DNA of 64,000 nucleotides from Escherichia phage Gostya9. A program made the position numbers and the translations under genes. The DNA is taken from sequence record NC_047979.1, one strand, 5' to 3'. Shown in pieces: positions 409-59,963 of this stretch (position 1 is its first letter; each line of letters starts with the position of its first letter). Below the pieces are notes generated by a model that made no database searches, had not been told where the DNA came from, and was given only the letters and a program-made list of their open reading frames with translations.

Positions 409-480
409 TACCGATCGTAGGATTCGAACCTACATCTTCCACCAGTTACGGCTTGATAATACCGTTTATACTAGATCGGC
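409..480 (-). tRNA. tRNA-like element (possibly degenerate tRNA or pseudo-tRNA); anticodon not assignable
   Basis: Minus-strand sequence GCCGATC...GTAGG-TTCGAAT-CCTAC-GATCGGT-A gives a canonical T-arm (5-bp stem, TTCGAAT loop) and a 7-bp acceptor stem with G1-U71 and discriminator A. The 40 nt between them do not fold into standard D and anticodon arms by hand (only an ACGG/CCGT 4-bp stem with a 10-nt loop). It lies directly downstream of an early-type promoter at 557-585. Confidence 0.4.
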
Positions 481-2495: not shown

Positions 2496-3134
2496 TTACT
2501 CTACTTCAATGAAAGTAGAGGCATTGGACTCAGACAGAACAAAGTCAACATTAGTTGCAAAGTCCTGGTATTCTTCGTCGTGCTGCTTGATCAGCTTTTC
2601 CAGCTCCAGCGGATCAATCAAGAATGGGGTATTCTTGAGTTCCAACAGGTTGAGCTGCATTTTAACTTCATCTTCGGAAGTTTTCTTATCGCGGGTAGCC
2701 ATGCTATCCTGCAAACGCTCATATTTAGCATCAAACTGTGCTTTCTGCGTATTAAACTTAACCGTAGCGGCATGGAACTGCTTACGCATATTAGCCAGCA
2801 ACTGAGCTTTAAGTTCCATAGAACGTTTAGCTTCAATTGCTTCTGCAACAGTCATTTTACGAGAACCAATCTCAACGATTGTTTCCGCATTGCTCTTAAT
2901 CAATGCTGCTTTGATACGATCACGTTGGGACAGCATATCTAGTAGGGATTGGAAATCTGTCTTAATACGATTAGACAGATCTTCTACTTCGATTGCGGCA
3001 CCAACTACAACCTGGTTTTTATCCTTACCTTCACCAACAGCGATCAGAAGCTGTTGTTCAGTAGCTTTACGGATTTTAGCTTCCAGAGATTTGATGGTTG
3101 CCAGAGCACGAGTTTTAGAGATACGAGTGGTCAC
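2496..3134 (-). CDS. hypothetical protein (212 aa), probable GTG start
   Basis: Long ORF with AAGGAAG RBS 7 nt upstream of GTG at 3134 and no in-frame ATG nearby. Charged, coiled-coil-like composition. Confidence 0.5.
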   Translation of the reverse strand: MTTRISKTRALATIKSLEAKIRKATEQQLLIAVGEGKDKNQVVVGAAIEVEDLSNRIKTDFQSLLDMLSQRDRIKAALIKSNAETIVEIGSRKMTVAEAIEAKRSMELKAQLLANMRKQFHAATVKFNTQKAQFDAKYERLQDSMATRDKKTSEDEVKMQLNLLELKNTPFLIDPLELEKLIKQHDEEYQDFATNVDFVLSESNASTFIEVE

Positions 3135-3186
3135 TGTTTCTTCCTTACATGAAGTTTAAGGTTTGAATTTGTTTAAAGTTGGTCTA

Positions 3187-3369
3187 TTACAGACCCATTG
3201 CCAGTAAGGTACGCAGAACAGTATCTTTACTATTATCAATTTTAGGATTAGCACGATTTAGCAGATCAAAGATTTTCTGGACACCTGATTGACGTTCAGC
3301 CATACGACGGATACCCAGATTACGAGTAGCTTTCTTACCATTTTTACGAACATTTTTAGATACTGGCAT
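3187..3369 (-). CDS. small basic hypothetical protein (60 aa)
   Basis: ATG-initiated ORF immediately downstream of the promoter at 3411-3439; Lys/Arg-rich. Confidence 0.45.
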   Translation of the reverse strand: MPVSKNVRKNGKKATRNLGIRRMAERQSGVQKIFDLLNRANPKIDNSKDTVLRTLLAMGL

Positions 3370-3410
3370 ATTTGTTTTCCTTTTATTGTTTTCTCAAATT
3401 TATGAAATAT

Positions 3411-3439
3411 ATTATACAGAATTTTGGAGCCGGAAGCAA
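3411..3439 (-). promoter_or_regulatory. sigma70-type early promoter (TTGCTT-N17-TATAAT)
   Basis: Minus strand TTGCTT, 17-bp spacer, TATAAT, CATAAATTT box. Confidence 0.5.
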
Positions 3440-3440
3440 A

Positions 3441-4142
3441 TCAAATTTTCATTTTTTCGATCATAGCTGCAACACAATAGCTCTCAACTAAGGCATCGAA
3501 TGCTGGGTCGTGCTTAACCGGATATATCCCGTAACGAATGGTGTCCATCTTCTCCATTTTAGCTATTGCCCAGCTAATACCTTCGGTCTCTAGAGCCTTA
3601 TAACTGTATCCAGCTTGCATCCAGAGATTACGAAGGGATCGAACATTACCCAAATTCCAGAATTTCCACGGAACTATTTCTTCATTGGTTCCAGCATGGA
3701 AAGTGTTTGCAGAGTAGATAGTCATATCAAACTCTGGGCCATTGCCATAATACAAAGCATTTTCGCCTAGAGCCAATTCCATAATGTTTTTAGCCATAGA
3801 ATAAGCTGCATAGTTAGAGCCGAGCTTATTAGTACAGTGATGTTTACCATCTTGAAAAGCAATCAGCTTTGGATTACGCTCGTTCATAGCTTCCATAATG
3901 TGGAAAGCAGACGGACTATTTTTAGCTTGATCCATCCAGAATGCTAGAGTAGATGCTGTAACTTTGGCACCAGAATTAAGCTGATCCTGCACATCCAAAG
4001 TAACAAACACTAGATCAGGGTCTTTATCAATTCCGTGCATAGCCACAAAAGCGAAAGAAGGCATTACGATATGAGTAGTACCACAATCTCCCGGAGTTCC
4101 TAGAGATTCAATATCTAACATACCAAATGGTTTTACTTTCAT
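3441..4142 (-). CDS. putative 3'-5' exonuclease (DEDD / DnaQ-like fold)
   Basis: N-terminal FGMLDIESLG resembles DEDD exonuclease motif I (D-x-E); 233 aa. Motif-level inference only. Confidence 0.45.
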   Translation of the reverse strand: MKVKPFGMLDIESLGTPGDCGTTHIVMPSFAFVAMHGIDKDPDLVFVTLDVQDQLNSGAKVTASTLAFWMDQAKNSPSAFHIMEAMNERNPKLIAFQDGKHHCTNKLGSNYAAYSMAKNIMELALGENALYYGNGPEFDMTIYSANTFHAGTNEEIVPWKFWNLGNVRSLRNLWMQAGYSYKALETEGISWAIAKMEKMDTIRYGIYPVKHDPAFDALVESYCVAAMIEKMKI

Positions 4143-5882: not shown

Positions 5883-6392
5883 TTATTCCCCTTCGTAGGT
5901 ATCTTCAGGCCAATGTGATGGTTCACTATCTGCTGGTTTATACATTCTAGGTAGTGCTAATAGTGAGAGAAAAGCTGGCTCACTAAAGTAGTGAGTATAT
6001 TCTTTAAACTCTGAGAACCACTCAGTTACCTCTTGAATATCCTCTTCACAAGGTGAGAGAGTTTCTATGGAACAGGTTGCACCCCTCTTAGGTTTGGTTT
6101 TATAATAGTCATCTAGTACTCTTTGAACCTTCTGTGCTGTTTCCTCAGCAGTTAAAGATTCATCACACTCTATACTATCTATCTCCTCTGCTAGATAGTC
6201 CGGCCATTCCTCTCCCTGACCTACTCCATCATAACGAATGACTGGCTGGCAGTCCTCATCACTATTTAGTGCATGTAGTTCCATATAATGGAACGTTTGG
6301 GCTATTACATCTAGCAGCAACTTTAGTTGCTCTTTTGAGGCTGTCCCTTCTTTGTACTTAATATAGGCATTAGCTACTTTTGGATTAATCAT
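5883..6392 (-). CDS. acidic hypothetical protein (169 aa)
   Basis: ATG-initiated ORF downstream of the promoter at 6427-6455; very Asp/Glu-rich. Confidence 0.55.
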   Translation of the reverse strand: MINPKVANAYIKYKEGTASKEQLKLLLDVIAQTFHYMELHALNSDEDCQPVIRYDGVGQGEEWPDYLAEEIDSIECDESLTAEETAQKVQRVLDDYYKTKPKRGATCSIETLSPCEEDIQEVTEWFSEFKEYTHYFSEPAFLSLLALPRMYKPADSEPSHWPEDTYEGE

Positions 6393-6493: not shown

Positions 6494-7267
6494 TTATACA
6501 AACTCATACGCCGGGAACTTAGGTGAACGAACTCTATTACCTATAGTCGCTGTGGAACACCCCAATGCTCTAGCTGCTGCACTCATACTAACGTATTCCA
6601 CACCATCCACACGTACTGCCTTAAAGTGAGTAGGAATGGGTGTCTTTCCCTCTCTAATACTTTCTTGGTACTGCTTAGAAGCCTGAGACATCTTGCTCAG
6701 AGCCTCTTCAGTGTGCTTCTTCCCATAAAAGGAGTTATTCTCACCTGTTCGATCCCTACAACTATTACAGTACTCCCCATTAGTGTTATTAAGGGCTAGT
6801 AGGGAACCACAATCAATACATGTTTTTGAGCGAGTAGATACTCCTCCCTTCCAGTTATAGTTTAGCTCGCCTGGTCTACTCCACCGGGCTTTTCTTTCTT
6901 CTTTAGATAAGGACGCTATATGCTTTCTAACACTCTCACTAATTCTCTTAATAATCTCCTCTCTTCGAGGATTATTTGTGAGATTATCCCCGCCACCGTA
7001 GCTACCTATGTTGAACTCTGCTCCCAGCTCCTTAGCCCACTCTTCTTCTAGTAAGAACTGCTGATCTACTTCTTCAGTAGTATCTAAGATGTCAAATACA
7101 AAGTCTTGCTTTCCGGTTTTATCATAAGCTCTCTGTAGAAAAGCGTTATGGTGGTTCCCCTTACTTAGTGAGTAAAAATGTTTACGCTTTCTAGCCTCAA
7201 TATCCTTAGTCGATCCAACGTACTGTCTTCCCGTAGATAGCTGAGTTATACTATAGATGTAAATCAT
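6494..7267 (-). CDS. GIY-YIG homing endonuclease
   Basis: N-terminal IYIYSI...GRQYVGST...R..KH matches the GIY-YIG catalytic module; C-terminal region has repeated NUMOD-like Cys-containing DNA-binding segments. Free-standing gene upstream of thyA. Confidence 0.75.
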   Translation of the reverse strand: MIYIYSITQLSTGRQYVGSTKDIEARKRKHFYSLSKGNHHNAFLQRAYDKTGKQDFVFDILDTTEEVDQQFLLEEEWAKELGAEFNIGSYGGGDNLTNNPRREEIIKRISESVRKHIASLSKEERKARWSRPGELNYNWKGGVSTRSKTCIDCGSLLALNNTNGEYCNSCRDRTGENNSFYGKKHTEEALSKMSQASKQYQESIREGKTPIPTHFKAVRVDGVEYVSMSAAARALGCSTATIGNRVRSPKFPAYEFV

Positions 7268-8097
7268 GCTGCCATTTTACCAGTTAATTTAGGGTGATGT
7301 TTATATTCTTCCAGGATAAAGTCTTTGGGTGTTAGGGCCAGAAGATCTTCTAAGGAAGAGAAGTTTGGCAGTACTAGTCTAGGTAGCTCCAGGGGTTCTC
7401 TAGTTACTTGCTCCTTTACTTGGTCTAGGTGATTTAAGTAAATATGAGTGTCCACAAGATGTCCTGTTACTGACCCAGGTTTCTTTCCTGTGAGTGCAGC
7501 TAAAATATGACAGAGTAAGGCATAGCTAGCTATATTAAATGGTAATCCTAGAAATACATCACAACTAACCTGGTACCATGTTAAGTGTAGGTGTCCATCT
7601 CTTTGGTTTACAGAGAACATTACGTGGCAGGGAGAAAGCACAACGTCGTCAAGTTTTGCAGGATTCCATGCTGAGACTACCATTTTTCTATTATGAAAAA
7701 TATCGGATTTGATATCCTCGATTAGTTTCATAATCTGGTCTGTACCGAAGAAGTCTCTCCAGTTTTTCCCATAAATATATCCCAGATAACCTTCAGTGTA
7801 GCCTTTTTCGACCCCTTGTTTTTCATAATTAGGATGCCAGATAGTACGCTTCTCTCCTCTAGTCCCATGAGTATACTCTTCTAGATCATACAAGTTAGTA
7901 GATCCTGAGAGGAACCACAACAACTCCCCTACCACGGATTTCCACGCTAGTGCTTTTGTTGTTACTGCTGGAAACCCTTTAGTAAGGTCAAAAGAGACAA
8001 TATTATTTAGGGAAGAGATAGTACCTACACCTGTCCGGTCAGACACGTGGGTTCCCTCAGATAAAACTTTATTAATTAAATCAATATACTGTTTCAT
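7264..8097 (-). CDS. thyA: thymidylate synthase
   Basis: PCHVMF...YQVSCDVFLGLPFNIASYALL matches the ThyA active-site region (catalytic Cys in PCH). Confidence 0.9.
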   Translation of the reverse strand: MKQYIDLINKVLSEGTHVSDRTGVGTISSLNNIVSFDLTKGFPAVTTKALAWKSVVGELLWFLSGSTNLYDLEEYTHGTRGEKRTIWHPNYEKQGVEKGYTEGYLGYIYGKNWRDFFGTDQIMKLIEDIKSDIFHNRKMVVSAWNPAKLDDVVLSPCHVMFSVNQRDGHLHLTWYQVSCDVFLGLPFNIASYALLCHILAALTGKKPGSVTGHLVDTHIYLNHLDQVKEQVTREPLELPRLVLPNFSSLEDLLALTPKDFILEEYKHHPKLTGKMAA

Positions 8098-13305: not shown

Positions 13306-13381
13306 AAATAACACTCCTATAGTGTACTTCGCTTCTAACAGAGGATCAACAAAAAGATCTTGTTTATCAACTTACAAATAT

Positions 13382-13410
13382 ATTATACCAGTATATATAG
13401 TAAAAAGCAA
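13382..13410 (-). promoter_or_regulatory. sigma70-type early promoter for phoH (TTGCTT-N17-TATAAT)
   Basis: Minus strand TTGCTT, 17-bp spacer, TATAAT. Confidence 0.45.
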
Positions 13411-13547
13411 CTACAATTTTAAATAAGCCTATGATATTGCATTTAAATAAAAAATTTGCTTGCTTATAAAGGTAGAAATATGATACTAGATAATCATTTA
13501 TTTATACGCGAAATATTACAGTATTAGATGGCGAAAGAAAAATTTAA

Positions 13548-13576
13548 TTGACATAGTGGGTAATATTTAGTATAAT
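13548..13576 (+). promoter_or_regulatory. consensus sigma70 promoter for nrdD (TTGACA-N17-TATAAT)
   Basis: Exact TTGACA at 13548-13553, 17-bp spacer, TATAAT at 13571-13576; divergent from the phoH promoter. Confidence 0.6.
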
Positions 13577-13709
13577 AAGTGTAAAAATTCTGAGGAGAAA
13601 ACTAACCCACAGTAACTACTGTAAAGAGTAGAACTGTCAGTACAGAAGTTTTAACGGGGTATAGAGGTCCTCGGTACTGTAGCTACAAAATTTATAGAGG
13701 AAATAATTA

Positions 13710-15536
13710 ATGACAGAGAATGAATTAATTGAGAATTGCAAAGGTCTGCTCACTCTAACTGCGGATAAAGACTTACAACATAATAATGCTAATAAGCCTA
13801 GTGAGATGTTCCATACTCAAAGAGACTTATTGGCCGGAGAAATCAACAAGTATTTAGTATCGCAGGAATTACCCAAACATCTATTAGACGCCCATAATCT
13901 AGGTAAGATACACATTCATGATATGGATTACAGAGCGCAGGGGTACACTAACTGTTGCTTAGTAGACCTTGGTGGCATGCTGAAGAATGGTACTAAAATT
14001 GGTAATGCAAATATTGAAACTCCTAAATCCATAACTACTGCATGTGCAATCACTGCCCAGATTATTGCACAAGTATCTGGTGCTCAGTATGGTGGCACCT
14101 CTATTGATCGTATCGACGAGGTTCTAGCCCCGTATGTCAGAAAGTCTTACAATAAACATCTGGGTCGTGGTCTACGTTGGCTCAAGGATGAAAGAAAAGC
14201 TGCCGTGTACGCTACTGAGCTTACTGAAAAAGAGTGTTATGATGCATTCCAAGCTCTAGAGTATGAAACTAATTCATTATTTAACTCTAACGGGCAGACT
14301 CCTTTTGTTACGCTTGGCTTTGGGCTAGGACAGGGGTGGGAGGAAAGGATGATTCAGAAAGCCATCCTCCAAAATCGTATTAAAGGTTTAGGTGCTGCTG
14401 AGTCAACCCCTATCTTCCCTAAACTAGTATTCTCAGTTAAAGAAGGATTAAATAAAAATCCAGGGGATCCTAACTACGATATAAAACAGCTAGCACTTGA
14501 GTGTTCTGCTACTCGTATGTATCCAGACTATTTAAGTTACGAGAAAGTTGTAGCTGTTACTGGTGATTTTAAAGCCCCTATGGGTTGTCGTAGTTTTTTA
14601 TCTGCTATCCCCTCTGGAGAAATTGCAGGGCGTAATAATTTAGGTGTAGTGTCTATCAATCTACCTATGGTTGCTGCTGAGGCAGATGGAGTTTTTGAAG
14701 ATTTCTGGGATATTCTAGACAAATATGTGGATGAGGCTTTTGAAGCGCATGACTTCTTCTTAAACAGACTGAAGAAAGTTAAGGCTAAACAAGCCCCTAT
14801 TCTTTATATGCACGGCGGTTTTGGTGTACGTTTAGATGGGGAAGAATATGTATGGCCTATTTTTGAAGGTAGATCTTCTGTATCTCTTGGGTACATTGGG
14901 GTCTATGAGATGTGTCAAATAATGTTTAGTTTACCACAGACTCATAGGGACTGTATTGAGTTTACAGAGGAAGTTCTCACTCACCTAAAAAATCGTTGCG
15001 AAGTTAAAGCTAACGAGACTAATCTTGGGTTTAGCTTGTATGCAACTCCTAGTGAGTCTCTATGTAATCGCTTTAATAAACTACTGGAACGTAGATTCCC
15101 AGAGTATTCTTGGCTAACAGATAAAGGCTATCTCACTAATAGTCACCATTTGGACGTAAGAGAGAAGGTAGCTCCGGATACTAAATTTGAGTATGAAGCT
15201 CATTTCACCAAAATAGCTAATGGTGGTAATATATCGTTTGTGGAACTACCACAAATGAAAAAGTTCCATAAAGCTCTTGAATACGTAGTAGATAAGGGAT
15301 TAGAATGTAGCCATTATATTGGTGTTAATATACCAATTGATGAGTGCTTCAACTGTGGGTATATGGGTGAATCTGTTGCCTCTGAACGTGGGTTTGTATG
15401 TCCGAGTTGTGGATCTGAAGAAATAGAGGTTACACGTAGGGTTTGTGGGTACCTGGGATCCCCGGGCAGTAGGCCTTTCAATTCTGGGAAACAAAAAGAA
15501 GTGCTTGGTAGAGTAAAACACTTAAATCTTAAGTAA
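13710..15536 (+). CDS. nrdD: anaerobic ribonucleoside-triphosphate reductase (class III)
   Basis: 608 aa; C-terminal CxxC...CxxC zinc site followed by the glycyl-radical motif RVCGYLG. Confidence 0.85.
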   Translation: MTENELIENCKGLLTLTADKDLQHNNANKPSEMFHTQRDLLAGEINKYLVSQELPKHLLDAHNLGKIHIHDMDYRAQGYTNCCLVDLGGMLKNGTKIGNANIETPKSITTACAITAQIIAQVSGAQYGGTSIDRIDEVLAPYVRKSYNKHLGRGLRWLKDERKAAVYATELTEKECYDAFQALEYETNSLFNSNGQTPFVTLGFGLGQGWEERMIQKAILQNRIKGLGAAESTPIFPKLVFSVKEGLNKNPGDPNYDIKQLALECSATRMYPDYLSYEKVVAVTGDFKAPMGCRSFLSAIPSGEIAGRNNLGVVSINLPMVAAEADGVFEDFWDILDKYVDEAFEAHDFFLNRLKKVKAKQAPILYMHGGFGVRLDGEEYVWPIFEGRSSVSLGYIGVYEMCQIMFSLPQTHRDCIEFTEEVLTHLKNRCEVKANETNLGFSLYATPSESLCNRFNKLLERRFPEYSWLTDKGYLTNSHHLDVREKVAPDTKFEYEAHFTKIANGGNISFVELPQMKKFHKALEYVVDKGLECSHYIGVNIPIDECFNCGYMGESVASERGFVCPSCGSEEIEVTRRVCGYLGSPGSRPFNSGKQKEVLGRVKHLNLK

Positions 15537-15542
15537 GCTAAT

Positions 15543-15576
15543 CAGCCAGGTTGCTAGTCGACCTGGCTTTTATTTT
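15543..15576 (+). terminator. rho-independent terminator after nrdD
   Basis: Hairpin AGCCAGGT-TGCTAGTCG-ACCTGGCT followed by TTTTATTTT. Confidence 0.6.
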
Positions 15577-15578
15577 AT

Positions 15579-16311: not shown

Positions 16312-17139
16312 GTGCGTAGATTAATTATTATTAGCGGTGCAGGTTTGAGTGTTGAAAGTGGTGTACGAGCCTTCCGTACTGATACTGCTAGTGGTAAAGC
16401 ATTGTGGGATGATTATGATCTAGAAGAAGTATGTAATATTCATGCCTTTCGTGGTAATTTTTATCATAAAACTCATATGTTTTACAACAAGCGTCGTGAA
16501 GAGTTAGAAACTGTTGAACCCAATCTTGCACACTTGCGTATTGGTGAATGGCATAAGAAATACCAGGGTCAAGTAGTAAACTTGACTACCAACGTTGATG
16601 ACCTTATTGAGCGTGCTGGCGTTCCACATAGTGACATTCTGCACATTCATGGGTATTTAAAAGAGGTTGTTGTAGCTGATAGCTACAATAGTAGCAATAA
16701 ACGAGTTATTGATGTTGGGTATAGCTCTATTGACCCAGAGGATTATAAATGGGTTAAACCTAATGTAGTCTTCTTTGGTGAGCATGCTCCAGCGTACGCA
16801 GAAATGTACAATATTTTTGATGGTATTACCAGTCAAGATATGATTATTGTGGTTGGTTGCTCTAACCAAGTAATTAACTTCTACTGGGAATTATTCCCTG
16901 TTCTTAACCGTACTGCTGCGAAACTTATGGTGGTTAACTACTACGATATTACCCTCGCGGCAGAACCAGGCTATCAAGGTATGACTCGTAGTGAGATGTA
17001 CCAACTGGAAGAACGGGGTATTCCTTACTGGGGTAAAGGTGCGGTAGATGCTTTCAGTGACCCTGATTTTATTGCTCGTGTGGAAGCCCATTTAGAGGGT
17101 AGACCTTATATGCCGGGGAACAAATATGTCCATAGTTAA
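16312..17139 (+). CDS. Sir2-family (sirtuin-like) NAD+-binding protein lacking the zinc-ribbon module; probable GTG start
   Basis: Sirtuin motifs in order: GAGLSVESGVRAFR (GAGxS..SG..FR), TTNVDDL (TQNxD-like), HIHGY (catalytic His), PNVVFFGE, VVGCSNQV. No CxxC...CxxC Zn-binding insert. GTG at 16312 with AGAGAGGG upstream; no in-frame ATG before the GAG motif. Confidence 0.7.
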   Translation: MRRLIIISGAGLSVESGVRAFRTDTASGKALWDDYDLEEVCNIHAFRGNFYHKTHMFYNKRREELETVEPNLAHLRIGEWHKKYQGQVVNLTTNVDDLIERAGVPHSDILHIHGYLKEVVVADSYNSSNKRVIDVGYSSIDPEDYKWVKPNVVFFGEHAPAYAEMYNIFDGITSQDMIIVVGCSNQVINFYWELFPVLNRTAAKLMVVNYYDITLAAEPGYQGMTRSEMYQLEERGIPYWGKGAVDAFSDPDFIARVEAHLEGRPYMPGNKYVHS

Positions 17140-17783: not shown

Positions 17784-18212
17784 ATGTTCAATAATGTATT
17801 CTCTAAAGAAGCTAACCCAATATTGGTTAATTTTTGGCGTACTCTTCCAGCCAACCTGTACAATGAGGCTATTAATGCTCTGAAAATATGGTGTGAGAAT
17901 AATGAAATCTCCTTTGCTTTTAAGGATGAGATTGAAGAAGCTCCCTGTATTGGTTTAATTGTGCAGGTAGAGGATGGCTTTGAAGAGATTGTCGGCTGGA
18001 AAGAGTTGGATGAAATGGGATTGGTTTTTGCATTAAACTATAAGCTGTTTATGCCTAATAAACACCGTATTGTTGTTAATTATAAAACCAGTGAATCTCC
18101 TGGTTTTCAAGTTAATGAACATTACGGTTGGTCTTACTCACCGGAAGAAGTAAATGATGGTATCCAAAGACTTCGTCGTTTTGGTTATCAAATTCCGGGT
18201 TTAACTGCCTAA
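17784..18212 (+). CDS. hypothetical protein, paralog A of a tandem pair
   Basis: 142 aa; shares conserved blocks with the next gene (SFAFKDEIEEAPCIGL / KELDEMGLVFALNYKLFMP / FGYQIPGL). Confidence 0.6.
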   Translation: MFNNVFSKEANPILVNFWRTLPANLYNEAINALKIWCENNEISFAFKDEIEEAPCIGLIVQVEDGFEEIVGWKELDEMGLVFALNYKLFMPNKHRIVVNYKTSESPGFQVNEHYGWSYSPEEVNDGIQRLRRFGYQIPGLTA

Positions 18213-18221
18213 GGGGGCACA

Positions 18222-18614
18222 ATGGAACAAGTATATTGGCGTCAGATTGATCCTAGTTTGGTGAAGAGTGCGGAGAAGCTGCTACAACGTTGGTTGGGGG
18301 TAAGACAAGCCTCCTTCACTTTTCCGGAGCAGCAAATAGACGATCCCTGTGTTGGTGTTTTCCTATCAGGCTACGCTAGGGAAGTGGAATTGGATTGGAA
18401 TGAATTGTCTGCTATGGGTTTAATTGTTGCACTAGATTTCTCTTTGTTCCATCCAAGTGGTTTGGCAATATGTCGTGTGCCTGATGACGGTTGTTCGCCC
18501 CATCTTTTACAGGTGGAAGATAATATTTGGGAGTACCCTCCAGATATTCTCAAAGAAGCTAAAGAACAATTAAATCGTGTTGGGATTTATGTTCCAGGCC
18601 TGAATGATGAATGA
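18222..18614 (+). CDS. hypothetical protein, paralog B of a tandem pair
   Basis: 130 aa; aligned blocks SFTFPEQQIDDPCVGV / NELSAMGLIVALDFSLFHP / VGIYVPGL mirror the upstream gene. Confidence 0.6.
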   Translation: MEQVYWRQIDPSLVKSAEKLLQRWLGVRQASFTFPEQQIDDPCVGVFLSGYAREVELDWNELSAMGLIVALDFSLFHPSGLAICRVPDDGCSPHLLQVEDNIWEYPPDILKEAKEQLNRVGIYVPGLNDE

Positions 18615-24183: not shown

Positions 24184-24206
24184 AGCCCCTATATGGGGCT
24201 TTTTGT
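24184..24206 (+). terminator. rho-independent terminator
   Basis: Hairpin AGCCCC-TATAT-GGGGCT followed by TTTTT. Confidence 0.65.
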
Positions 24207-24223
24207 GTATTTGAGAAACGTAA

Positions 24224-24532
24224 ATGAGCGATCAGGTAAACCAAAACTATGAAGGACACGTTGATGATCAGTCAATCCTTCTATGGGAAAAAGAAGGGGA
24301 ACAAATAAGATTGACAGTATCTGAATTTCGTGGGAATCTATACATGGGAATTAGGTATTGGCTCCAGGATATTACTGGAGAATGGTTTCCAACGAAATCC
24401 GGCTTCTCTTTTCCGTACACTCTAGAAACTACTTCGCAGCTATTCTATGCTTTTACGCAAATCCTTAGTGAATCTGAGGTTCTTGCCGAAGTACAGAAAC
24501 GAGCTGAAGAACTCAAAGCCAAGAATGCCTAG
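24224..24532 (+). CDS. hypothetical protein (102 aa)
   Basis: ATG-initiated ORF flanked by two terminators. Confidence 0.55.
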   Translation: MSDQVNQNYEGHVDDQSILLWEKEGEQIRLTVSEFRGNLYMGIRYWLQDITGEWFPTKSGFSFPYTLETTSQLFYAFTQILSESEVLAEVQKRAEELKAKNA

Positions 24533-24559: not shown

Positions 24560-24588
24560 TTGCTTTCAACTCAGTTTTGTTATATAAT
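24560..24588 (+). promoter_or_regulatory. sigma70-type early promoter (TTGCTT-N17-TATAAT)
   Basis: TTGCTT, 17-bp spacer, TATAAT, 30 nt upstream of the ligase N-terminal gene. Confidence 0.55.
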
Positions 24589-24619
24589 ATTTATATAAAT
24601 TAATGAGAGATATAAATAA

Positions 24620-25591
24620 ATGACTAATGTAAAAGAATTTATTAAACGCTGTCAAGAAGCATATTATCAGGGCATGTCTTTAATCTCTGATGAGGAGTAT
24701 GATCGCCTGGTAAAACGCTTCCCGTTAGAGGAAGAGATCGGGCCTAAGGGTGATATTCCACACCTATATCGTATGTATTCTTTACAGAAAGTTTATTATA
24801 ATCGTGGAGATAAACCCCCATTTGACCCGTTAGGTCAAGTAGAAACTGATAAGTTAGATGGTTGTGCGATTTCCCTGCTATATATTAACGGTGAATTTGT
24901 TCAAGCACTAACTCGTGGTAATGGTATTCTGGGAAATGATGTCACAAGCAACGTAAGATTGCTGAACATCCCTAAAAAGATTTCCCAAAAAGTACCTACT
25001 CAAATCACTGGTGAAGTTCTAATTACAAAAGAAGTAGAAAATAAACGTAACTTTGCCTCTGGTGCTATTAACCTCAAAGATAGTGATGATTTCATGCAAC
25101 GTATCGGGGAAGGTGGTTTAATCTTCGTTGCATACGGTATCCAGTGTTCTGCTGAATCTGTAGGTATTACAGAAGCGTATTTAAAAGATATGCTTTGGCT
25201 AGAGAATGAGAACTTCTTAACAGTTGTTAATGTGCGTTCCTTCTTTAAATGGATTCCGACGGACGGTAAAGTTGTTCGTATTAATGACAATAACAAATTC
25301 TTCCGTGAAGGTTGGACTAATAAATTTCCTCGTGGGGCATTCGCTATTAAAGAGGATGAAGAAGGCGAGATTACAACTCTTACTAAAGTTGAATGGCAGG
25401 TAGGGGCTTCTGGTAAAGTAACTCCAGTCGGTTATTTTGAACCAGTAATTATTGATGATGCTACAATTGTTAAAGCGACTCTTAATAATGTTGATTATAT
25501 TAACTCTCTCGATCTAGAGATCGGTTGCCAGATTCGAGTGATTCGTGCTGGTGGTGTAATCCCGTGCATAGTAGAGCGAGTTTATGATTAA
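24620..25591 (+). CDS. ligA: NAD-dependent DNA ligase, N-terminal subunit (adenylation + OB-fold domains)
   Basis: 323 aa with the KxDG adenylation motif (DKLDGCAIS) and an OB-fold segment (EWQVGASGKVTPVGYFEPVIIDDATIVKATLNN); ends before the Zn-finger region. Confidence 0.75.
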   Translation: MTNVKEFIKRCQEAYYQGMSLISDEEYDRLVKRFPLEEEIGPKGDIPHLYRMYSLQKVYYNRGDKPPFDPLGQVETDKLDGCAISLLYINGEFVQALTRGNGILGNDVTSNVRLLNIPKKISQKVPTQITGEVLITKEVENKRNFASGAINLKDSDDFMQRIGEGGLIFVAYGIQCSAESVGITEAYLKDMLWLENENFLTVVNVRSFFKWIPTDGKVVRINDNNKFFREGWTNKFPRGAFAIKEDEEGEITTLTKVEWQVGASGKVTPVGYFEPVIIDDATIVKATLNNVDYINSLDLEIGCQIRVIRAGGVIPCIVERVYD

Positions 25592-27415: not shown

Positions 27416-28888
27416 ATGACCTTGTTTAACGTGCAAGCTGTAGTGTTGAAGATGCTTCTAGCTTCCGAACAGAAGCAAATAGCATTGGAAACATTCTCAA
27501 AACTGCATAAAGATCATTTTAATGACGCTTTCTCCTCAATTTACCAAGCCGTCCAGAATTATTATAAAAAATATAACACAATGCCGTCCATTGACGCACT
27601 GATGCTTGAGGCTAATAGGAACGCCCGCCTTTCTCAAGCTCTAGTCGTTTTAGCTAACACTCAAATTCCAGAAGTTAGCATGGAACAGGCACTTGAAGTC
27701 CTAGAGGCCGAGTATACACAGGATTTATTCCTGAAGCTTCTAGAAACAGACGTGCTTCAAGATTTAACAATGCTGGATCAGGGAGAAATTCTTAACCGAG
27801 TTGCCTCCCTTCACTTAAAATTAGAAGAGAAAGTAACGAATACTGGAAAAGTATTCAACGCAGATAACATGCGTATTTTCCAGAGAGAAGAAGATACCAA
27901 ACTGAACTTAATCGCTCTTGGTATTTGTAATGAGTTCGACGCTCAAATTGGTTTAGCTCGCACAGAAACGTTACTGCTTGGTGGTTGGCGTGGTACTGGT
28001 AAATCCATTATCTGTTCAAACATACAGGTTCAGCAATATTTGAATGGAGATATTGCTCCATACTTCTCAATTGAGATGAAAGAACATGAAGTATTTAGAC
28101 GTAATCTAGCTATGTTAGCTGGTGTATCAGCACTAGCAATGCGTAATAATACTCTAGAAGGTGCAGCTCTGTTGAGATTAGCCAGAACTAGAGCTAGGAT
28201 GTTTAACGGTGGTGAAGAGCTTTTCGATAACTTCGTTAAACAGTACACAATGGCTAAGATGAGTGATTTCTACGATATGGAAAGTAAGCTAATAGAAGGA
28301 TATGAGCTACATACTCCTATGATTATTGTTTATGATCCTGAGCTGTCTATTACAACAGTTGACGTAGAATTAAATAAATTAGTTGCTAGATATGGGGATA
28401 AAGTTACAGTAGCTTTACTAGACTATATTAACCAAACCCGACTTCCAGACTCTAAAACCATTGATATGTATGACTGGAAAGAACAGATGGTTGTTAGCTC
28501 GTCTTTCAAATCTATCTGCCAGAAACATAACGTGGCTGGTGTAGCTCCTTACCAGATCGATCAAGATGGTAGAACACGTATGTCGAAGGGGATTCTTGAT
28601 TCCGCAGACATGGCTGCTAATCTTAATGCTGCAAAAGCTGATAATGGTCAAGGTGCTATTATGTTTGACTTCGTTAAGACTCGGTCTTCTGATAGCGTGA
28701 AGTTTATGCCTAAAATGAACTGGGAAACCCTGCGGATGGATAACACTACCAACCTAGCAATGGAAGATATATCTCAAATGGAAGCTGAGTTCGTTATCCC
28801 TATTGAGAAGGATAAGCCGACTCAATCTAAACGTGCTAAGAAAGACAAAGCTGAAAATTCAACAGGTGAACAGGCCAGCGATATATGA
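27416..28888 (+). CDS. DnaB-like replicative DNA helicase
   Basis: About 490 aa with RecA-like P-loop (LLGGWRGTGKSIIC). ATG at 27416 with AAAGGAGA RBS, downstream of the terminator; the track ORF begins upstream inside the hairpin. Confidence 0.6.
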   Translation: MTLFNVQAVVLKMLLASEQKQIALETFSKLHKDHFNDAFSSIYQAVQNYYKKYNTMPSIDALMLEANRNARLSQALVVLANTQIPEVSMEQALEVLEAEYTQDLFLKLLETDVLQDLTMLDQGEILNRVASLHLKLEEKVTNTGKVFNADNMRIFQREEDTKLNLIALGICNEFDAQIGLARTETLLLGGWRGTGKSIICSNIQVQQYLNGDIAPYFSIEMKEHEVFRRNLAMLAGVSALAMRNNTLEGAALLRLARTRARMFNGGEELFDNFVKQYTMAKMSDFYDMESKLIEGYELHTPMIIVYDPELSITTVDVELNKLVARYGDKVTVALLDYINQTRLPDSKTIDMYDWKEQMVVSSSFKSICQKHNVAGVAPYQIDQDGRTRMSKGILDSADMAANLNAAKADNGQGAIMFDFVKTRSSDSVKFMPKMNWETLRMDNTTNLAMEDISQMEAEFVIPIEKDKPTQSKRAKKDKAENSTGEQASDI

Positions 28889-29418
28889 TAACACAGGAAA
28901 GGCTAAAAGAGTTATTTGATTACTCCCCAGTTTCTGGGGAGTTTACTAGAAAAGTATCTAGAGGTAATCAGAAAGCTGGTAGTATAATAACCAGAAAAGA
29001 CTCTAACGGTTATATAATTATTGGTATAGATGGCAAGGATTACAAAGCCCATCGGATGGCTTTTCTATTTATGGAAAATACATTGCCGGAAAAAGTAGAC
29101 CATGTAAACAGAATACCTTTTGATAATAGGTGGTGTAATCTAAGAGACGCCACAGCTCAGGAAAATAGTAGAAATAAAACCGCATGTAGTAAGTCTGGAT
29201 ATTTGGGAGTTGCTTGGGATATCGAAAAACAAAGATGGAGAGTTCAAGTAAGAGACTCTAATAGCACTCTTAAAAATGGTGGCAGATTTAAGTATGAAGA
29301 GCTAGAGCTAGCTGTAAATTCAGCAAATATATTAAGGACTAAGTTACATGGAGAACGTGCTGTTATAGAAATTTTTGATACATCTAATTATCCTTCACTG
29401 GAGGAGTTAAATTCATGA
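28885..29418 (+). CDS. HNH homing endonuclease
   Basis: HVNRIPFDNRWCNLRDATAQENSRN matches the HNH catalytic motif (H...N...N). 177 aa, inserted between helicase and primase with overlapping start/stop codons. Confidence 0.7.
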   Translation: MITQERLKELFDYSPVSGEFTRKVSRGNQKAGSIITRKDSNGYIIIGIDGKDYKAHRMAFLFMENTLPEKVDHVNRIPFDNRWCNLRDATAQENSRNKTACSKSGYLGVAWDIEKQRWRVQVRDSNSTLKNGGRFKYEELELAVNSANILRTKLHGERAVIEIFDTSNYPSLEELNS

Positions 29419-30367: not shown

Positions 30368-33300
30368 TTGAAAATTGCAGTAGTTGATAAAGCTCTAAAC
30401 AACACTCGTTATGATAAACATTTCCAGCTATACGGCGAGGAAGTTGATGTATTCCATATGTGTAACGAGAAGTTATCCGGTCGTTTGCTCAAAAAGCATA
30501 TTACTATCGGGACCCCGGAAAACCCATTTGACCCGAATGATTATGATTTTGTTATACTGGTAGGTGCCGAACCTTTCCTGTACTTTGCGGGTAAGAAAGG
30601 TATTGGTGATTATACTGGTAAACGTGTAGAGTATAATGGATATGCTAACTGGATTGCTAGTATCAGCCCAGCCCAGTTACACTTTAAACCTGAAATGAAA
30701 CCAGTTTTTGATGCAACAGTAGAGAGTATCCACGATATTATCAATGGTCGTGAGAAGATTGCAAAAGCTGGTGATTACCGTCCTATTACTGACCCTGATG
30801 AGGCAGAAGAATATATCAAGATGGTGTATAATATGGTTATCGGACCTGTCGCATTCGACTCCGAAACCTCAGCACTATACTGTCGAGATGGTTATCTGCT
30901 TGGTGTTTCTATTTCTCACCAAGAGTATCAGGGTGTATATATCGATTCTGATTGTCTCACAGAGGTTGCAGTATATTATCTCCAGAAAATTCTGGATAGT
31001 GAAAACCACATTATTGTTTTTCACAACTTGAAGTTTGATATGCACTTTTATAAGTACCATCTGGGACTTACTTTTGATAAAGCACATAAAGAACGCAGGC
31101 TCCATGATACCATGTTGCAGCACTATGTTCTAGATGAACGTCGTGGTACTCATGGCTTGAAATCTCTAGCAATGAAGTATACCGATATGGGTGACTATGA
31201 CTTCGAACTAGATAAGTTCAAAGATGATTACTGCAAAGCACATAAAATCAAGAAAGAAGATTTCACCTATGATCTGATTCCGTTTGATATTATGTGGCCA
31301 TATGCATGTCTTACTCACGATTCCCAAGTTCGGATGGCTTCAGGGAATTGGAAGACTATTGGGGAACTTGTTCGCACCAAATCTACAGAAGCTGTAGTAT
31401 CATTCAACGAGTCAACTGGGCAATTTGAGAACAAACCGATTACTGGATGGTATAAAAATGAACATAAATCCAAGCAATGGAAGAAGTTAATAGTTAAATC
31501 TCAGCAAAGAAACTCTAAGGGTACTATTAATGGGCCAGTATTTACACCAGATCATAGGGTATTAACTCAGAATGGATACATAGAAGTCCAAGATATTATT
31601 CCAGGACAGGATAAAATCCTAACTGAAGAACTTGCTTTACCATCTGATAGTAAGCAAGTATTAATGGCATCCCTATTTGGGGATGGTGCTCTGGTATCTA
31701 GAAATAATTGGGGCGCGGGTCTACAACTGACACAGTCAGAAGCGCATAAAGAGTATCTAGATTTTAAGGCAGCCTCTCAAGTAGAAACACCAACTCTTAG
31801 TTCCTCTACAAAAGGAGATAAAAAAGCATATACGTATAGTTTCCCCTATACCTCGGAGTATTCTGACTTATTCTCTACCTTAGAGGTACGAGATAATACT
31901 ACAAAATATAAGTTAAAAATTACTAAGAAAAATCTAGAAGGGTTAGATGAAAAAGCACTAGCTATTTGGTATCAAGATGATGGTAACCTGCCACAAGGAA
32001 ACGCACGCATTTGGTCTAGAACAGTTGCTGATTGTAAAGAAGAGCAGCAAAATTTCATAGAATGGTGTAAAAATCTAGGCATTACAGCACGCTACCATAA
32101 CGATGGAGAAAATAACCAGTTCTTTGTATTAGATAATGAAGAACTATTCCCTTTGATTGCTCCATATATGCATAGCTCTATGGCTTACAAGGTGCCAGAA
32201 AGATTCAAGCACTTAGTAGGAACAGGAACTTGGGATTTTTCAACATCTAAGTACTACTATGCAGAAGTGTATGGGGTTGAGGATTGGGTAGTTCCAGCCT
32301 CTAGAAGAGGTTACTCTACCAGTTGGTGTATAGATGTAAAAGATAACCATAACTTTGTAACTAAAGTTGGTGTAGTTCACAACTGTAAAGATACAGATGC
32401 TACCATACGTTTGCACAACTTCTTCTTACCAAAAATTGAGAAGAATGAAAAACTTTGCAGTCTATATTACGATGTTCTAATGCCTGGTTGTGTATTCCTA
32501 CAGCGTGTCGAAGATCGTGGTGTACCTATCTCTATTGATCGTTTGAAAGAAGCTCAGTATCAATTGACTCATAATTTGAATAAAGCCCGTGAGAAACTGT
32601 ATACTTATCCAGAAGTTAAACAGCTAGAACAAGATCAGAATGAAGCATTTAACCCGAACTCTGTTAAGCAGCTGCGTGTTCTTCTGTTCGATTATGTTGG
32701 TTTGACTCCAACTGGTAAGTTAACGGATACTGGTGCAGATTCTACGGATGCAGAAGCTCTGAATGAACTGGCTACGCAGCATCCAATTGCTAAAACTCTA
32801 CTAGAGATTCGTAAGCTGACTAAGCTGATCTCTACTTATGTTGAGAAGATTCTTCTGAGTATTGATGCAGATGGTTGCATTCGTACTGGTTTCCATGAAC
32901 ATATGACTACTTCTGGTCGTCTGAGTTCTTCTGGTAAACTGAACCTGCAACAGCTACCTCGTGATGAATCTATCATTAAGGGTTGTGTAGTTGCACCACC
33001 TGGATACCGTGTAATCGCATGGGACTTAACAACTGCGGAAGTTTATTATGCTGCTGTTCTATCTGGTGATAGAAATATGCAACAAGTATTTATCAACATG
33101 AGAAATGAACCCGATAAATACCCTGACTTCCACTCTAACATCGCCCACATGGTATTTAAATTGCAATGTGAACCTCGTGATGTTAAAAAGTTATTCCCAG
33201 CTCTGCGTCAAGCAGCTAAGGCAATTACCTTTGGTATTTTGTACGGTTCTGGCCCGGCTAAAGTAGCACATTCTGTTAACGAAGCATTGCTAGAACAAGC

Positions 33301-59451: not shown

Positions 59452-59963
59452 TATACTCTCCTGTAAACTTCAATAATAGTACGAATATGCTCTGGAATAC
59501 CAGACTTAGTATTATTAAAAGTAACTGTTTCACCCCCAATAGTCTTGGCTTGACGATAATCTTGTTTATGCCAGTGATCTACTAATAGACATGCTGCAAG
59601 TTTGAGATCTTCAGGGATTGGGTTAAATCCACCTTGTGTGTACTCTACATCCATATAACCTTCTGGGGGATTAAATTTAAGAAGTATAACCCCATCAGAG
59701 TATAATCTGTATTGCTCGGGGTCTATCTCCTTATCATTAATAGTCATTTTGGTTACTGAAGTAGCTGAGGGAGAACTTAAAAAGTATTTTTTACGAGTAG
59801 GTTTTGTATTGATTAACTGGTCTACCGCGTCAGCATCATCCATACCTAAAAGGCTAGTAATCAGCGCATTGGCAGCAGTAATCATCATCTCTACTCCAGA
59901 TTCTAGTTCAGGTCGTTTTAAACCACCGTATAATCTATAGTCTTCAGCTGTGATGATTTGCAT
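59451..59963 (-). CDS. head completion/adaptor-like protein (170 aa), by position
   Basis: First gene downstream of the major capsid gene. Confidence 0.35.
   Translation of the reverse strand: MQIITAEDYRLYGGLKRPELESGVEMMITAANALITSLLGMDDADAVDQLINTKPTRKKYFLSSPSATSVTKMTINDKEIDPEQYRLYSDGVILLKFNPPEGYMDVEYTQGGFNPIPEDLKLAACLLVDHWHKQDYRQAKTIGGETVTFNNTKSGIPEHIRTIIEVYRRV

What the first reader, a model, noticed from the sequence alone, without database searches (positions are those of the whole stretch)
13548..15536. Class III anaerobic RNR without an adjacent activase, behind a consensus promoter and palindromic leader
nrdD carries the glycyl-radical motif but no NrdG-like radical-SAM (CxxxCxxC) protein is encoded next to it, implying reliance on host NrdG or a gene elsewhere. 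Its perfect TTGACA-N17-TATAAT promoter is followed by a leader of about 130 nt with the palindrome ACAGTA-AC-TACTGT and a CTGT...ACAG element, which may confer anaerobic or damage-responsive control.
Basis: partly seen in the sequence, partly recalled or inferred. Interest (0 to 1): 0.4.

Follow-up and report, generated by a model that had tools for sequence, protein, structure and literature searches.

The report
T5-like phage nrdD, endonuclease-relic leader
This is the ordinary anaerobic ribonucleotide reductase gene of a T5-like phage, already known to lack its own activating enzyme, and its "palindromic leader" is the decaying tail end of a deleted selfish endonuclease gene, not a regulatory element.

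Summary
The window is a T5-like phage (Tequintavirus), about 97-98% identical to DT57C.

**Confirmed**
- nrdD at 13710-15536 is an intact class III RNR with the RVCGY glycyl-radical motif.
- The TTGACA-N17-TATAAT promoter at 13548-13576 is real and is the only 12/12 match in the window.
- A strong terminator follows nrdD.
- No NrdG exists in the 64 kb window or in the complete DT57C genome.

The lack of nrdG is a family trait already in the literature (Dwivedi 2013). nrdD is under very strong purifying selection (dN/dS about 0.013). Its radical domain is more host-like than T4's, so activation by pre-existing host NrdG is the best inference.

**Not supported**
- The regulatory reading of the leader fails. 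In 27 related records the same promoter drives a 287-aa T5orf172/CapR-type homing-endonuclease gene whose 3' end overlaps the nrdD start.
- Window 13600-13723 is the remnant of that gene after a deletion of about 740 bp. It is 81% identical to the intact gene, carries stop codons and indels, and diverges at the synonymous rate.
- The palindromes are mutated codons, are absent from relatives, occur at chance level, and match no NrdR, FNR or LexA site and no Rfam family.

Verdict: ordinary and largely already known, with low interest.

The parts
13548..13576 (+). Sigma-70 consensus promoter (-35 TTGACA 13548-13553, 17-nt spacer, -10 TATAAT 13571-13576). In relatives it is the promoter of the T5orf172 homing-endonuclease gene plus nrdD.
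   Evidence: The promoter scan gives 12/12 and it is the only perfect match in the window. The same promoter lies upstream of the endonuclease ORF in SHSML-45, HildyBeyeler and phA11. Activity is not shown experimentally.
13592..13597 (+). Orphan Shine-Dalgarno sequence (GAGGAG) of the deleted endonuclease gene. No start codon follows it.
   Evidence: It aligns to the GGAGAAGTGGAATG ribosome-binding site and start codon of the intact ORF in L004. No ORF of at least 20 aa starts here.
13600..13723 (+). Pseudogene relic of the 3' end of a T5orf172/CapR-type homing-endonuclease gene. It forms most of the nrdD 5' leader and contains both 'palindromes' (13609-13622 and 13634-13645).
   Evidence: It is 81% identical to the last ~115 nt of the 287-aa ORF of SHSML-45, with a 9-nt deletion and a 3-nt insertion. 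Its translation shows stop codons but keeps ...KFIEEIINDRE*.
13697..13700 (+). nrdD Shine-Dalgarno sequence (GAGG, 9 nt before the ATG). It is conserved in all relatives of this allele.
   Evidence: Read from the sequence. The last ~25 nt of the leader are the best-conserved part in alignment A1.
13710..15536 (+). nrdD, the class III (anaerobic) ribonucleoside-triphosphate reductase catalytic subunit. It is 608 aa and has no ATP-cone.
   Evidence: Pfam NRDD 3.2e-157 and Gly_radical. It matches solved NrdD structures, 9d3x at 5.9e-183 and T4 1h78 at 2.2e-177. dN/dS is about 0.013.
15345..15452 (+). C-terminal zinc ribbon (CFNC...CPSC) and glycyl-radical motif RVCGY (15438-15452).
   Evidence: Motif positions are and the alignment to E. 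coli, T4 and T5 NrdD is.
15544..15578 (+). Intrinsic terminator (10-bp stem with 6 GC pairs, then a T-run) 8 nt after the nrdD stop codon. It makes nrdD a monocistronic unit.
   Evidence: Terminator scan. T5 carries an annotated terminator at the equivalent position.
13500..15182 (+). Mosaic cassette holding the promoter, the endonuclease relic and the 5' ~80% of nrdD. It is non-homologous or only ~68% identical to phage T5, while the flanks are 87-96% identical.
   Evidence: blastn of the window against the T5 locus. NrdD is only 62% identical to T5 NrdD at the protein level.

Best explanation
The region is the anaerobic ribonucleotide reductase transcription unit of a T5-like phage: a consensus early-type promoter, a leader of about 126 nt, nrdD, and an intrinsic terminator.

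**Origin of the promoter and leader.** They did not evolve as nrdD control elements. They belong to a mobile cassette in which the promoter drives a free-standing T5orf172 (GIY-YIG superfamily) homing-endonuclease gene with CapR/DUF4379 zinc-finger DNA-binding repeats. The stop codon of that gene overlaps the nrdD start. In this lineage (the window, DT57C and DT571/2) a deletion of about 740 bp removed the endonuclease start codon and almost the whole ORF. That fused the promoter and an orphan ribosome-binding site to the last ~110 nt of the gene. This remnant now drifts at the neutral rate and happens to contain short palindromes. Only its last ~25 nt, which carry the nrdD ribosome-binding site, remain constrained.

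**How NrdD is activated.** NrdD is intact and strongly conserved. The phage encodes no radical-SAM activase. The glycyl radical is therefore most likely installed by host (E. coli or Salmonella) NrdG already present in anaerobically growing cells.

**Shown:** the gene identities, the promoter match, the homology and decay of the relic, the absence of NrdG, and purifying selection.

**Inferred:** promoter use in vivo, the polarity of the change (a deletion here rather than an insertion elsewhere), and activation by host NrdG.
For: **Identity of the phage and gene**
- The window is a Tequintavirus, 97-98% identical to DT57C.
- NrdD identity and catalytic motifs are confirmed.
- The promoter is 12/12 and unique in the window, and a terminator follows nrdD.

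**The endonuclease relic**
- In SHSML-45, S124, SP01, SP3 and H8 the phoH-nrdD spacer is about 1140 bp rather than 395 bp.
- That spacer holds an ORF starting at the same promoter and ribosome-binding site and ending 14 nt into nrdD.
- Its Pfam domains are DUF4379 (3 stretches), CapR, and T5orf172/MUG113.
- The window leader aligns to the ORF's 3' end. ACAGTAACTACTGT corresponds to CATAACTACTTT (codons for H-N-Y-F). CTGTCAGTACAG corresponds to TTGCCAGTACAA.
- The remnant has stop codons and frameshifting indels.
- It differs at 19 of 102 aligned positions, a Jukes-Cantor distance of about 0.21. The nrdD dS against the same phage is 0.22.
- HildyBeyeler, phA11 and the Kenya phages carry a smaller deletion of about 666 bp in the same gene.
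- 27 records carry the full gene.
- T5orf172 endonuclease genes with CapR domains cluster at nrd genes and are unstable (PMC10448857).

**No phage activase**
- The only CxxxCxxC in any stop-free frame of the window is a 69-aa chance frame.
- tblastn with E. coli and T4 NrdG gives best E-values of 1.1 in the window and 2.2 in DT57C.
- A 6-seed NrdG HMM finds the T4 control at 8e-78. Its best hits are E = 3.8 in the window and 0.25 in DT57C.
- The complete DT57C annotation lists no nrdG.

**Function and likely host dependence**
- dN/dS is 0.013-0.014 in five comparisons.
- The C-terminal radical domain is 59.5% identical to E. coli NrdD, against 47% for T4, which has its own NrdG.
- More distant NrdD relatives have nrdG immediately downstream.
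Against: - No transcription data exist for this allele.
- The remainder of this phage's genome (about 45 kb outside the window) was assessed only through DT57C.
- The difference in C-terminal similarity rests on 74 residues and is only suggestive.
- The immediate flanks of the relic are much less diverged (nrdD 5' 450 nt: 6 differences). The relic's 19% divergence could therefore reflect an old allele plus flank homogenisation, or selection, rather than simple drift.
- Only three near-identical copies of this leader exist. Conservation or covariation within the deletion allele cannot be tested.
Confidence: 0.8

Rival explanations
1. One reading: the leader palindromes are operators or RNA hairpins that give anaerobic (FNR, NrdR) or DNA-damage (LexA) control of nrdD.
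For: The palindromes exist at 13609-13622 and 13634-13645. TACTGT/ACAGTA occurs 4 times in 13500-13720. The relic is more diverged than its immediate flanks.
Against: - 41% of shuffles have an equal or better inverted repeat, and 16% of shuffles have some hexamer occurring at least 4 times.
- The fold z-score is -1.21, and Rfam finds nothing even at E <= 1.
- The best LexA match has 7 of 20 mismatches, with no CTGT-N8-ACAG. FNR matches are at chance level. The only NrdR-like match (12/16, 13388-13403) lies in the phoH promoter, has no partner box and varies among relatives.
- The homologous sequence in relatives is coding and non-palindromic.
- T5 itself has an unrelated leader of about 35 nt.
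Confidence: 0.05
2. The polarity is reversed: the short leader is ancestral, and the endonuclease gene inserted into it in the relatives.
For: Homing endonuclease genes spread by insertion. T5 itself has no endonuclease gene upstream of nrdD.
Against: - An insertion would not make the pre-existing leader homologous to ~110 nt of the endonuclease's own coding 3' end, which encodes part of the T5orf172 domain.
- The window keeps the endonuclease ribosome-binding site without a start codon.
- There is a second, smaller deletion form (HildyBeyeler and phA11), and the NR01 allele shares the same C-terminal coding end.
Confidence: 0.07
3. The phage does encode an activase, either a divergent or non-canonical one or one in the part of the genome outside the window.
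For: About 45 kb of this phage's genome is not in the window. DT57C has a 107-aa protein (T5.055, 24184-24504) with a CICSCWMC motif next to a GrcA-like gene.
Against: - The complete DT57C genome has no NrdG hit by tblastn or HMM.
- T5.055 has no Pfam match and is too short for a radical-SAM core.
- The literature reports many phages, including the T5 group, with nrdD but no nrdG.
Confidence: 0.05
4. Without an activase, nrdD is a non-functional passenger gene.
For: No phage activase was found. The gene sits in a mosaic, endonuclease-associated cassette.
Against: dN/dS is about 0.013 across dS values up to 0.69. All catalytic, zinc and glycyl-radical motifs are intact. The gene has its own strong promoter, ribosome-binding site and terminator.
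Confidence: 0.03

Closest known systems
Phage T5 nrdD locus (T5.099; NC_005859) and other Tequintavirus/Epseptimavirus nrdD loci
   Same: The genomic position is the same: nrdD is divergent from phoH-nrdA-nrdB. T5 also has a TTGACA-17-TATAAT-type promoter, a terminator after nrdD and no nrdG.
   Different: T5 NrdD is 574 aa and only 62% identical. Its promoter and ~35-nt leader are unrelated in sequence. The window carries the minority endonuclease-associated allele with the endonuclease deleted.
T5orf172/CapR-domain free-standing homing-endonuclease genes (ICP1 and other phages; Barth et al. 2023, PMC10448857)
   Same: The intact relatives' ORF has zinc-finger DNA-binding repeats plus a C-terminal T5orf172 nuclease domain. 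It sits at the boundary of an nrd gene and of a recombination tract, and its presence at the locus is unstable.
   Different: In the window only a relic of about 120 nt with stop codons remains. Homing activity of the T5-like protein has not been tested.
Phage T4 nrdD-(mobC)-nrdG and the E. coli nrdDG operon
   Same: NrdD is homologous (about 51-53% identity), with the same glycyl-radical and zinc-ribbon motifs. T4 NrdD also lacks the ATP-cone and also has endonuclease genes at the locus.
   Different: T4 and E. coli encode NrdG next to nrdD, and the window does not. The E. coli nrdD promoter has FNR and NrdR boxes (sequence seen; box identities from my own knowledge). The window has none.

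Membership tests
Class III RNR catalytic subunit (NrdD) | Full-length match to the NRDD family and to solved NrdD structures | tested here: met
   Pfam PF13597 at 3.2e-157 over profile positions 2-562 of 562. PDB 9d3x at 5.9e-183 and T4 1h78 at 2.2e-177.
Class III RNR catalytic subunit (NrdD) | C-terminal glycyl-radical motif RVxGY, preceded by a 4-Cys zinc ribbon, plus the active-site Cys motifs | tested here: met
   RVCGY at aa 577, CFNC at 546, CPSC at 564, NCCL at 81 and MGCRS at 291. These align with E. coli, T4 and T5 NrdD.
Class III RNR system (NrdD plus NrdG operon) | A radical-SAM activase NrdG (CxxxCxxC) encoded next to nrdD or elsewhere in the same genome | tested here: not met
   The motif scan found nothing relevant. 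tblastn gave E > 1. The NrdG HMM found the T4 control at 8e-78, with best E of 3.8 in the window and 0.25 in DT57C. The DT57C annotation lists no nrdG.
NrdR / FNR / LexA regulated promoters | Tandem NrdR boxes, TTGAT-N4-ATCAA, or CTGT-N8-ACAG near the promoter | tested here: not met
   Consensus scans of 13315-13760 gave nothing better than chance within the leader. One unpaired 12/16 NrdR-like site lies in the phoH promoter and is not conserved. Consensus strings were used, not curated matrices.
Cis-regulatory RNA / riboswitch leader | A match to a known RNA family, or a stable and conserved structure | tested here: not met
   Rfam found nothing at gathering scores or at E <= 1. The fold z-score is -1.21. 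Covariation cannot be tested because there are only three ~99% identical copies.
T5orf172 (GIY-YIG superfamily) homing endonuclease gene | An intact ORF with DNA-binding repeats and a T5orf172 nuclease domain | tested here: not met
   The window keeps only sequence homologous to the last ~38 codons, with stop codons and indels. The intact ORF of relatives has the domains. The window copy is therefore a relic, not a member.

The most novel reading that the evidence does not exclude
The ~110-nt endonuclease relic may have been exapted in the DT57C/DT571-2/window lineage as a new nrdD leader element. Its mutation-created hairpins or repeated TACTGT/ACAGTA hexamers could modulate transcript stability or translation, or bind a protein. 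That would also explain why the relic is far more diverged than its immediate flanks.
Probability: 0.05. Interest if true: 0.35.

Novelty: already known. Interest (0 to 1): 0.15.

Why it matters
There is little here that is new.

That T5-group phages carry nrdD with nrdAB but no nrdG was already reported in 2013. Dependence on host NrdG is the default assumption.

The useful outcomes are corrective:
- The apparent regulatory leader is a decaying piece of a homing-endonuclease gene.
- The perfect promoter belongs historically to that mobile cassette.
- The nrdD 5' region is a recombination hotspot, with at least four alleles in Tequintaviruses.

This locus is a clean small example of the gain, decay and loss cycle of a homing-endonuclease gene at an nrd gene. 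It also warns against reading short palindromes in phage leaders as operators.

The one open biological point is whether host NrdG (and PflA for the phage's GrcA-like protein) really matures the phage's glycyl-radical proteins. That is testable, but it is not surprising.

Tried and rejected
**Regulatory-motif scans of 13315-13760**
- LexA, FNR and CRP matches are at chance level.
- A 12/15 ArcA-like match at 13538-13552 overlaps the A/T-rich upstream block and the -35 hexamer typical of T5 early promoters. It lacks the key G of the second repeat. The consensus string came from my own memory. Rejected.
- A 12/16 NrdR-like site at 13388-13403 shares TATATATAG with the E. coli nrdD NrdR box. It has no partner box and varies among T5, HildyBeyeler and SHSML-45. 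Rejected.

**Other sequence features**
- A 9-bp perfect inverted repeat flanks the -35 hexamer (13511-13519 and 13560-13568). It is not conserved in SHSML-45 and is at chance level. Rejected.
- A leader peptide: there is no ORF of at least 20 aa on the + strand in the leader.
- Rfam found nothing at gathering or relaxed thresholds.

**Possible hidden activase**
- The CxxxCxxC frame at 31570-31776(-) is a 69-aa stop-free frame with no start context. I judged it chance.
- T5.055 of DT57C (CICSCWMC, 107 aa) has no Pfam family and is too short. I did not accept it as an activase.

**Literature and unused tools**
- Searches for T5 nrdD/nrdG and for T4/E. coli NrdG cross-activation found nothing usable beyond Dwivedi 2013.
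- I did not use the large protein-database searches, structure prediction or covariance models. The leader has no diverged non-coding homologues to model.
Full report
**What the window is.** A megablast of 13300-16300 hits 441 phage records, essentially all T5-like phages of Escherichia and Salmonella. The best are DT57C and DT571/2 at about 98%. The window aligns collinearly to DT57C positions 31086-94213 at 94-98% identity. The local gene order is nrdB, nrdA, T5.097, phoH on the minus strand, then nrdD, two small ORFs, Sir2 and the D1 helicase on the plus strand. This matches the DT57C and T5 annotation.

**Checking the observation.**
- The ORF 13710-15536 encodes a 608-aa protein. It matches Pfam NRDD at 3.2e-157 over the whole profile and Gly_radical at 7.8e-14.
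- It also matches solved NrdD structures at E-values down to 1e-183.
- RVCGY is at aa 577-581 (nt 15438-15452). The CFNC...CPSC zinc ribbon and the NCCL and MGCRS active-site motifs are present.
- TTGACA-N17-TATAAT at 13548-13576 is a 12/12 match and the only perfect one in 64 kb. With up to 1 mismatch there are 6 sites against 0.77 expected.
- A 10-bp-stem terminator with a T-run follows the stop codon at 15544-15578. T5 has one annotated at the same place.
- They are not unusual. 41% of dinucleotide-preserving shuffles of the 126-nt leader contain an inverted repeat of at least 6 bp with a loop of at most 12 nt. 16% of shuffles of 13500-13720 have some hexamer occurring at least 4 times, which is how often TACTGT/ACAGTA occurs.
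- The leader's RNA fold z-score is -1.21. Rfam finds nothing at gathering scores or at E <= 1.

**No activase.**
- Six-frame scanning of the window finds a single CxxxCxxC in a stop-free frame of at least 50 aa. It is a 69-aa frame at 31570-31776(-) that looks like chance.
- tblastn with E. coli and T4 NrdG gives best E-values of 1.1 in the window and 2.2 in DT57C. The E. coli sequence was verified against NC_000913.
- A profile HMM built from six NrdGs (33-92% identical) recovers the T4 control at 8e-78. It gives nothing better than E = 3.8 in the window or 0.25 in the complete DT57C genome.
- The full DT57C annotation lists no nrdG.
- More distant NrdD relatives, at 34-54% identity, do have nrdG directly downstream in five of eight loci. 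Two of these five appear to be enterobacterial nrdDG itself.
- The trait is already published. Dwivedi et al. 2013 state that many phages contain only nrdD together with nrdAB. [quoted passage not shown]

**Is nrdD functional without an activase?** Among phages carrying this allele, dN/dS is 0.013-0.014 at dS values from 0.15 to 0.69. The gene is therefore strongly constrained. The C-terminal 74 residues, which hold the zinc ribbon and radical loop where the activase must act, are 59.5% identical to E. coli NrdD. T5 NrdD scores 61% over the same region. T4 NrdD, which has its own NrdG, scores only 47%, even though T4 is the more similar overall (58% against 53%). This is suggestive, not proof, that the phage enzyme is kept compatible with host NrdG. 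DT57C also encodes a GrcA-like glycyl-radical protein (Pfam Gly_radical 3.4e-18, RVSGY motif), again with no activase. Reliance on host activases looks like a family habit.

**What the leader really is.**
- Only 49 phage records match 13520-13760 at all. Only DT57C and DT571/2 match it end to end.
- In SHSML-45, Shivani, S124, SP01, SP3 and H8 the phoH-nrdD spacer is about 1140 bp rather than 395 bp.
- There the same promoter (TTGACATAGTGGATAATGTTTAGTATAAT) and ribosome-binding site are followed by ATG and a 287-aa ORF. That ORF ends 14 nt inside nrdD.
- The ORF has DUF4379 treble-clef zinc fingers (3 stretches), a CapR homology domain and a C-terminal T5orf172/MUG113 domain. This is the architecture of the T5orf172 homing-endonuclease genes described at nrd and other essential genes in ICP1-like and other phages (PMC10448857).
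- Window 13600-13709 aligns to the last ~115 nt of this ORF at 81% identity, with a 3-nt insertion and a 9-nt deletion.
- ACAGTAACTACTGT is the mutated form of CATAACTACTTT (codons for H-N-Y-F). CTGTCAGTACAG is the mutated form of TTGCCAGTACAA (C-Q-Y-K).
- Translated, the window reads PQ\*LL\*RVELSVQKF\*RG...KFIEEIINDRE\*, against AHNYFKEQNCQYKDFDGATEFF...KFIEEIINDRE\* in the intact gene.
- Upstream, the window keeps the endonuclease ribosome-binding site (GAGGAG, 13592-13597) but not its start codon.
- The leader is therefore a deletion relic. About 740 bp were lost between the ribosome-binding site and the last ~38 codons.
- HildyBeyeler, phA11 and the Kenya phages show a second, smaller deletion of about 666 bp in the same gene. 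NR01 carries a different 223-aa allele with the same C-terminal end.
- The relic differs from SHSML-45 at 19 of 102 aligned positions, a Jukes-Cantor distance of about 0.21. That equals the synonymous divergence of nrdD against the same phage (dS 0.22) and fits unconstrained drift.
- The best-conserved part is the last ~25 nt, which carry the nrdD Shine-Dalgarno sequence (GAGG, 13697-13700).

**Mosaic context.**
- Against T5 itself the window is 95.8% identical up to 13499. Identity then collapses, to 68% in 13947-14675 and no match elsewhere. It resumes at 87% from 15183, inside nrdD.
- T5 NrdD is 574 aa and only 62% identical. T5 has its own TTGACA-17-TATAAT promoter and a leader of about 35 nt, unrelated in sequence.
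- About 390 of 426 T5-like records share only the phoH-proximal 185 bp with the endonuclease-bearing allele.
- So the promoter, the endonuclease or its relic, and the 5' ~80% of nrdD form a minority cassette. Its edges look like a gene-conversion tract. This interpretation is inferred. It is consistent with the finding that nuclease genes occupy boundaries of genetic exchange.

**Regulatory motifs.** I scanned 13315-13760 with consensus strings.
- There is no LexA box. The best match has 7 of 20 mismatches, and there is no CTGT-N8-ACAG.
- FNR and CRP matches are at chance level.
- A 12/16 NrdR-like site at 13388-13403 lies in the phoH promoter spacer. It has no partner box and varies among T5, HildyBeyeler and SHSML-45.
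- An ArcA-like 12/15 match overlaps the A/T-rich upstream block and the -35 hexamer. It is explained by typical T5 promoter composition.
- None of these touches the leader palindromes.

**Mechanism (best estimate).** Host RNA polymerase with sigma-70 starts transcription at about 13583. The transcript carries a functionless endonuclease relic, is translated from the GAGG ribosome-binding site at 13697, and ends at the terminator at 15544-15578. NrdD is then matured by pre-existing host NrdG, SAM and flavodoxin in anaerobically growing cells. It supplies dNTPs when the phage class Ia NrdAB cannot work. Transcription start, in vivo promoter use and host activation are inferred, not shown.

**Verdict.** The descriptive observation is correct. 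The no-activase point is true but already known for the family. The regulatory-leader interpretation is not supported. The locus is an ordinary T5-like nrdD unit with a homing-endonuclease pseudogene relic as its leader.

Noticed in passing
window 6494-7267 (-): A 257-aa GIY-YIG / I-TevI-like free-standing homing endonuclease (Pfam GIY-YIG, NUMOD3 and the I-TevI DNA-binding and zinc-finger domains). It lies directly downstream of thymidylate synthase (7264-8097). Together with ORF 5883-6392, it is absent from DT57C.
   Followed up: partly
window 28885-29418 (+): A 177-aa HNH_3 endonuclease gene inserted between the replicative helicase and primase genes. It is absent from DT57C.
   Followed up: partly
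window ~31331-32383 (+), inside DNA polymerase 30368-34012: The DNA polymerase is 1214 aa, against an 855-aa CDS in DT57C. It carries an intein of about 350 aa with a LAGLIDADG_2 endonuclease domain (CLTHDS...VVHN|C). The insertion is missing at DT57C 59942-59948.
   Followed up: partly
window 13500-15182 versus L024 (T5): Two very different nrdD alleles circulate in otherwise ~90-96% identical T5-like genomes. The proteins are 608 and 574 aa and 62% identical. The sharp breakpoints lie at 13499/13500 and about 15183.
   Followed up: yes
window 13382-13410 (-) and 13450-13490 (+): The phoH promoter on the minus strand is TTGCTT-17-TGgTATAAT with an extended -10. A second T5-style promoter-like element on the plus strand (AAAAAATTTGCTTGCTT...TATGATACT) lies upstream of the consensus promoter. 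Both are conserved in T5 and HildyBeyeler. nrdD may therefore have tandem promoters. Neither was picked up as such by the simple scan.
   Followed up: partly
L018 (DT57C) 24577-24945 (-) and 24184-24504 (-), outside the window: T5-like phages also encode a GrcA/YfiD-like glycyl-radical protein (Pfam Gly_radical 3.4e-18, RVSGY motif). Next to it is a small protein of unknown function (T5.055) with a CICSCWMC motif and no Pfam match. No activase accompanies either glycyl-radical protein.
   Followed up: partly
window 16312-17139 (+): An intact 275-aa Sir2-family gene (Pfam SIR2 6.8e-26). DT57C has only a 'defective' 273-nt remnant here. T5 has a gene of comparable length, an 819-nt CDS.
   Followed up: no
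window 17784-18212 and 18222-18614 (+): Two tandem paralogous genes, each with two DUF7415 repeats (T5.106 and T5.107 homologues).
   Followed up: no
window 409-480 (-): The only Rfam hit above threshold in the window is one tRNA gene, at the edge of the T5 tRNA region.
   Followed up: no
L021 (T4) 2879-3511: In T4 an HNH homing endonuclease (mobC) sits between nrdD and nrdG, and nrdD carries the I-TevII intron. This is another case of endonuclease genes clustering at class III RNR genes.
   Followed up: no
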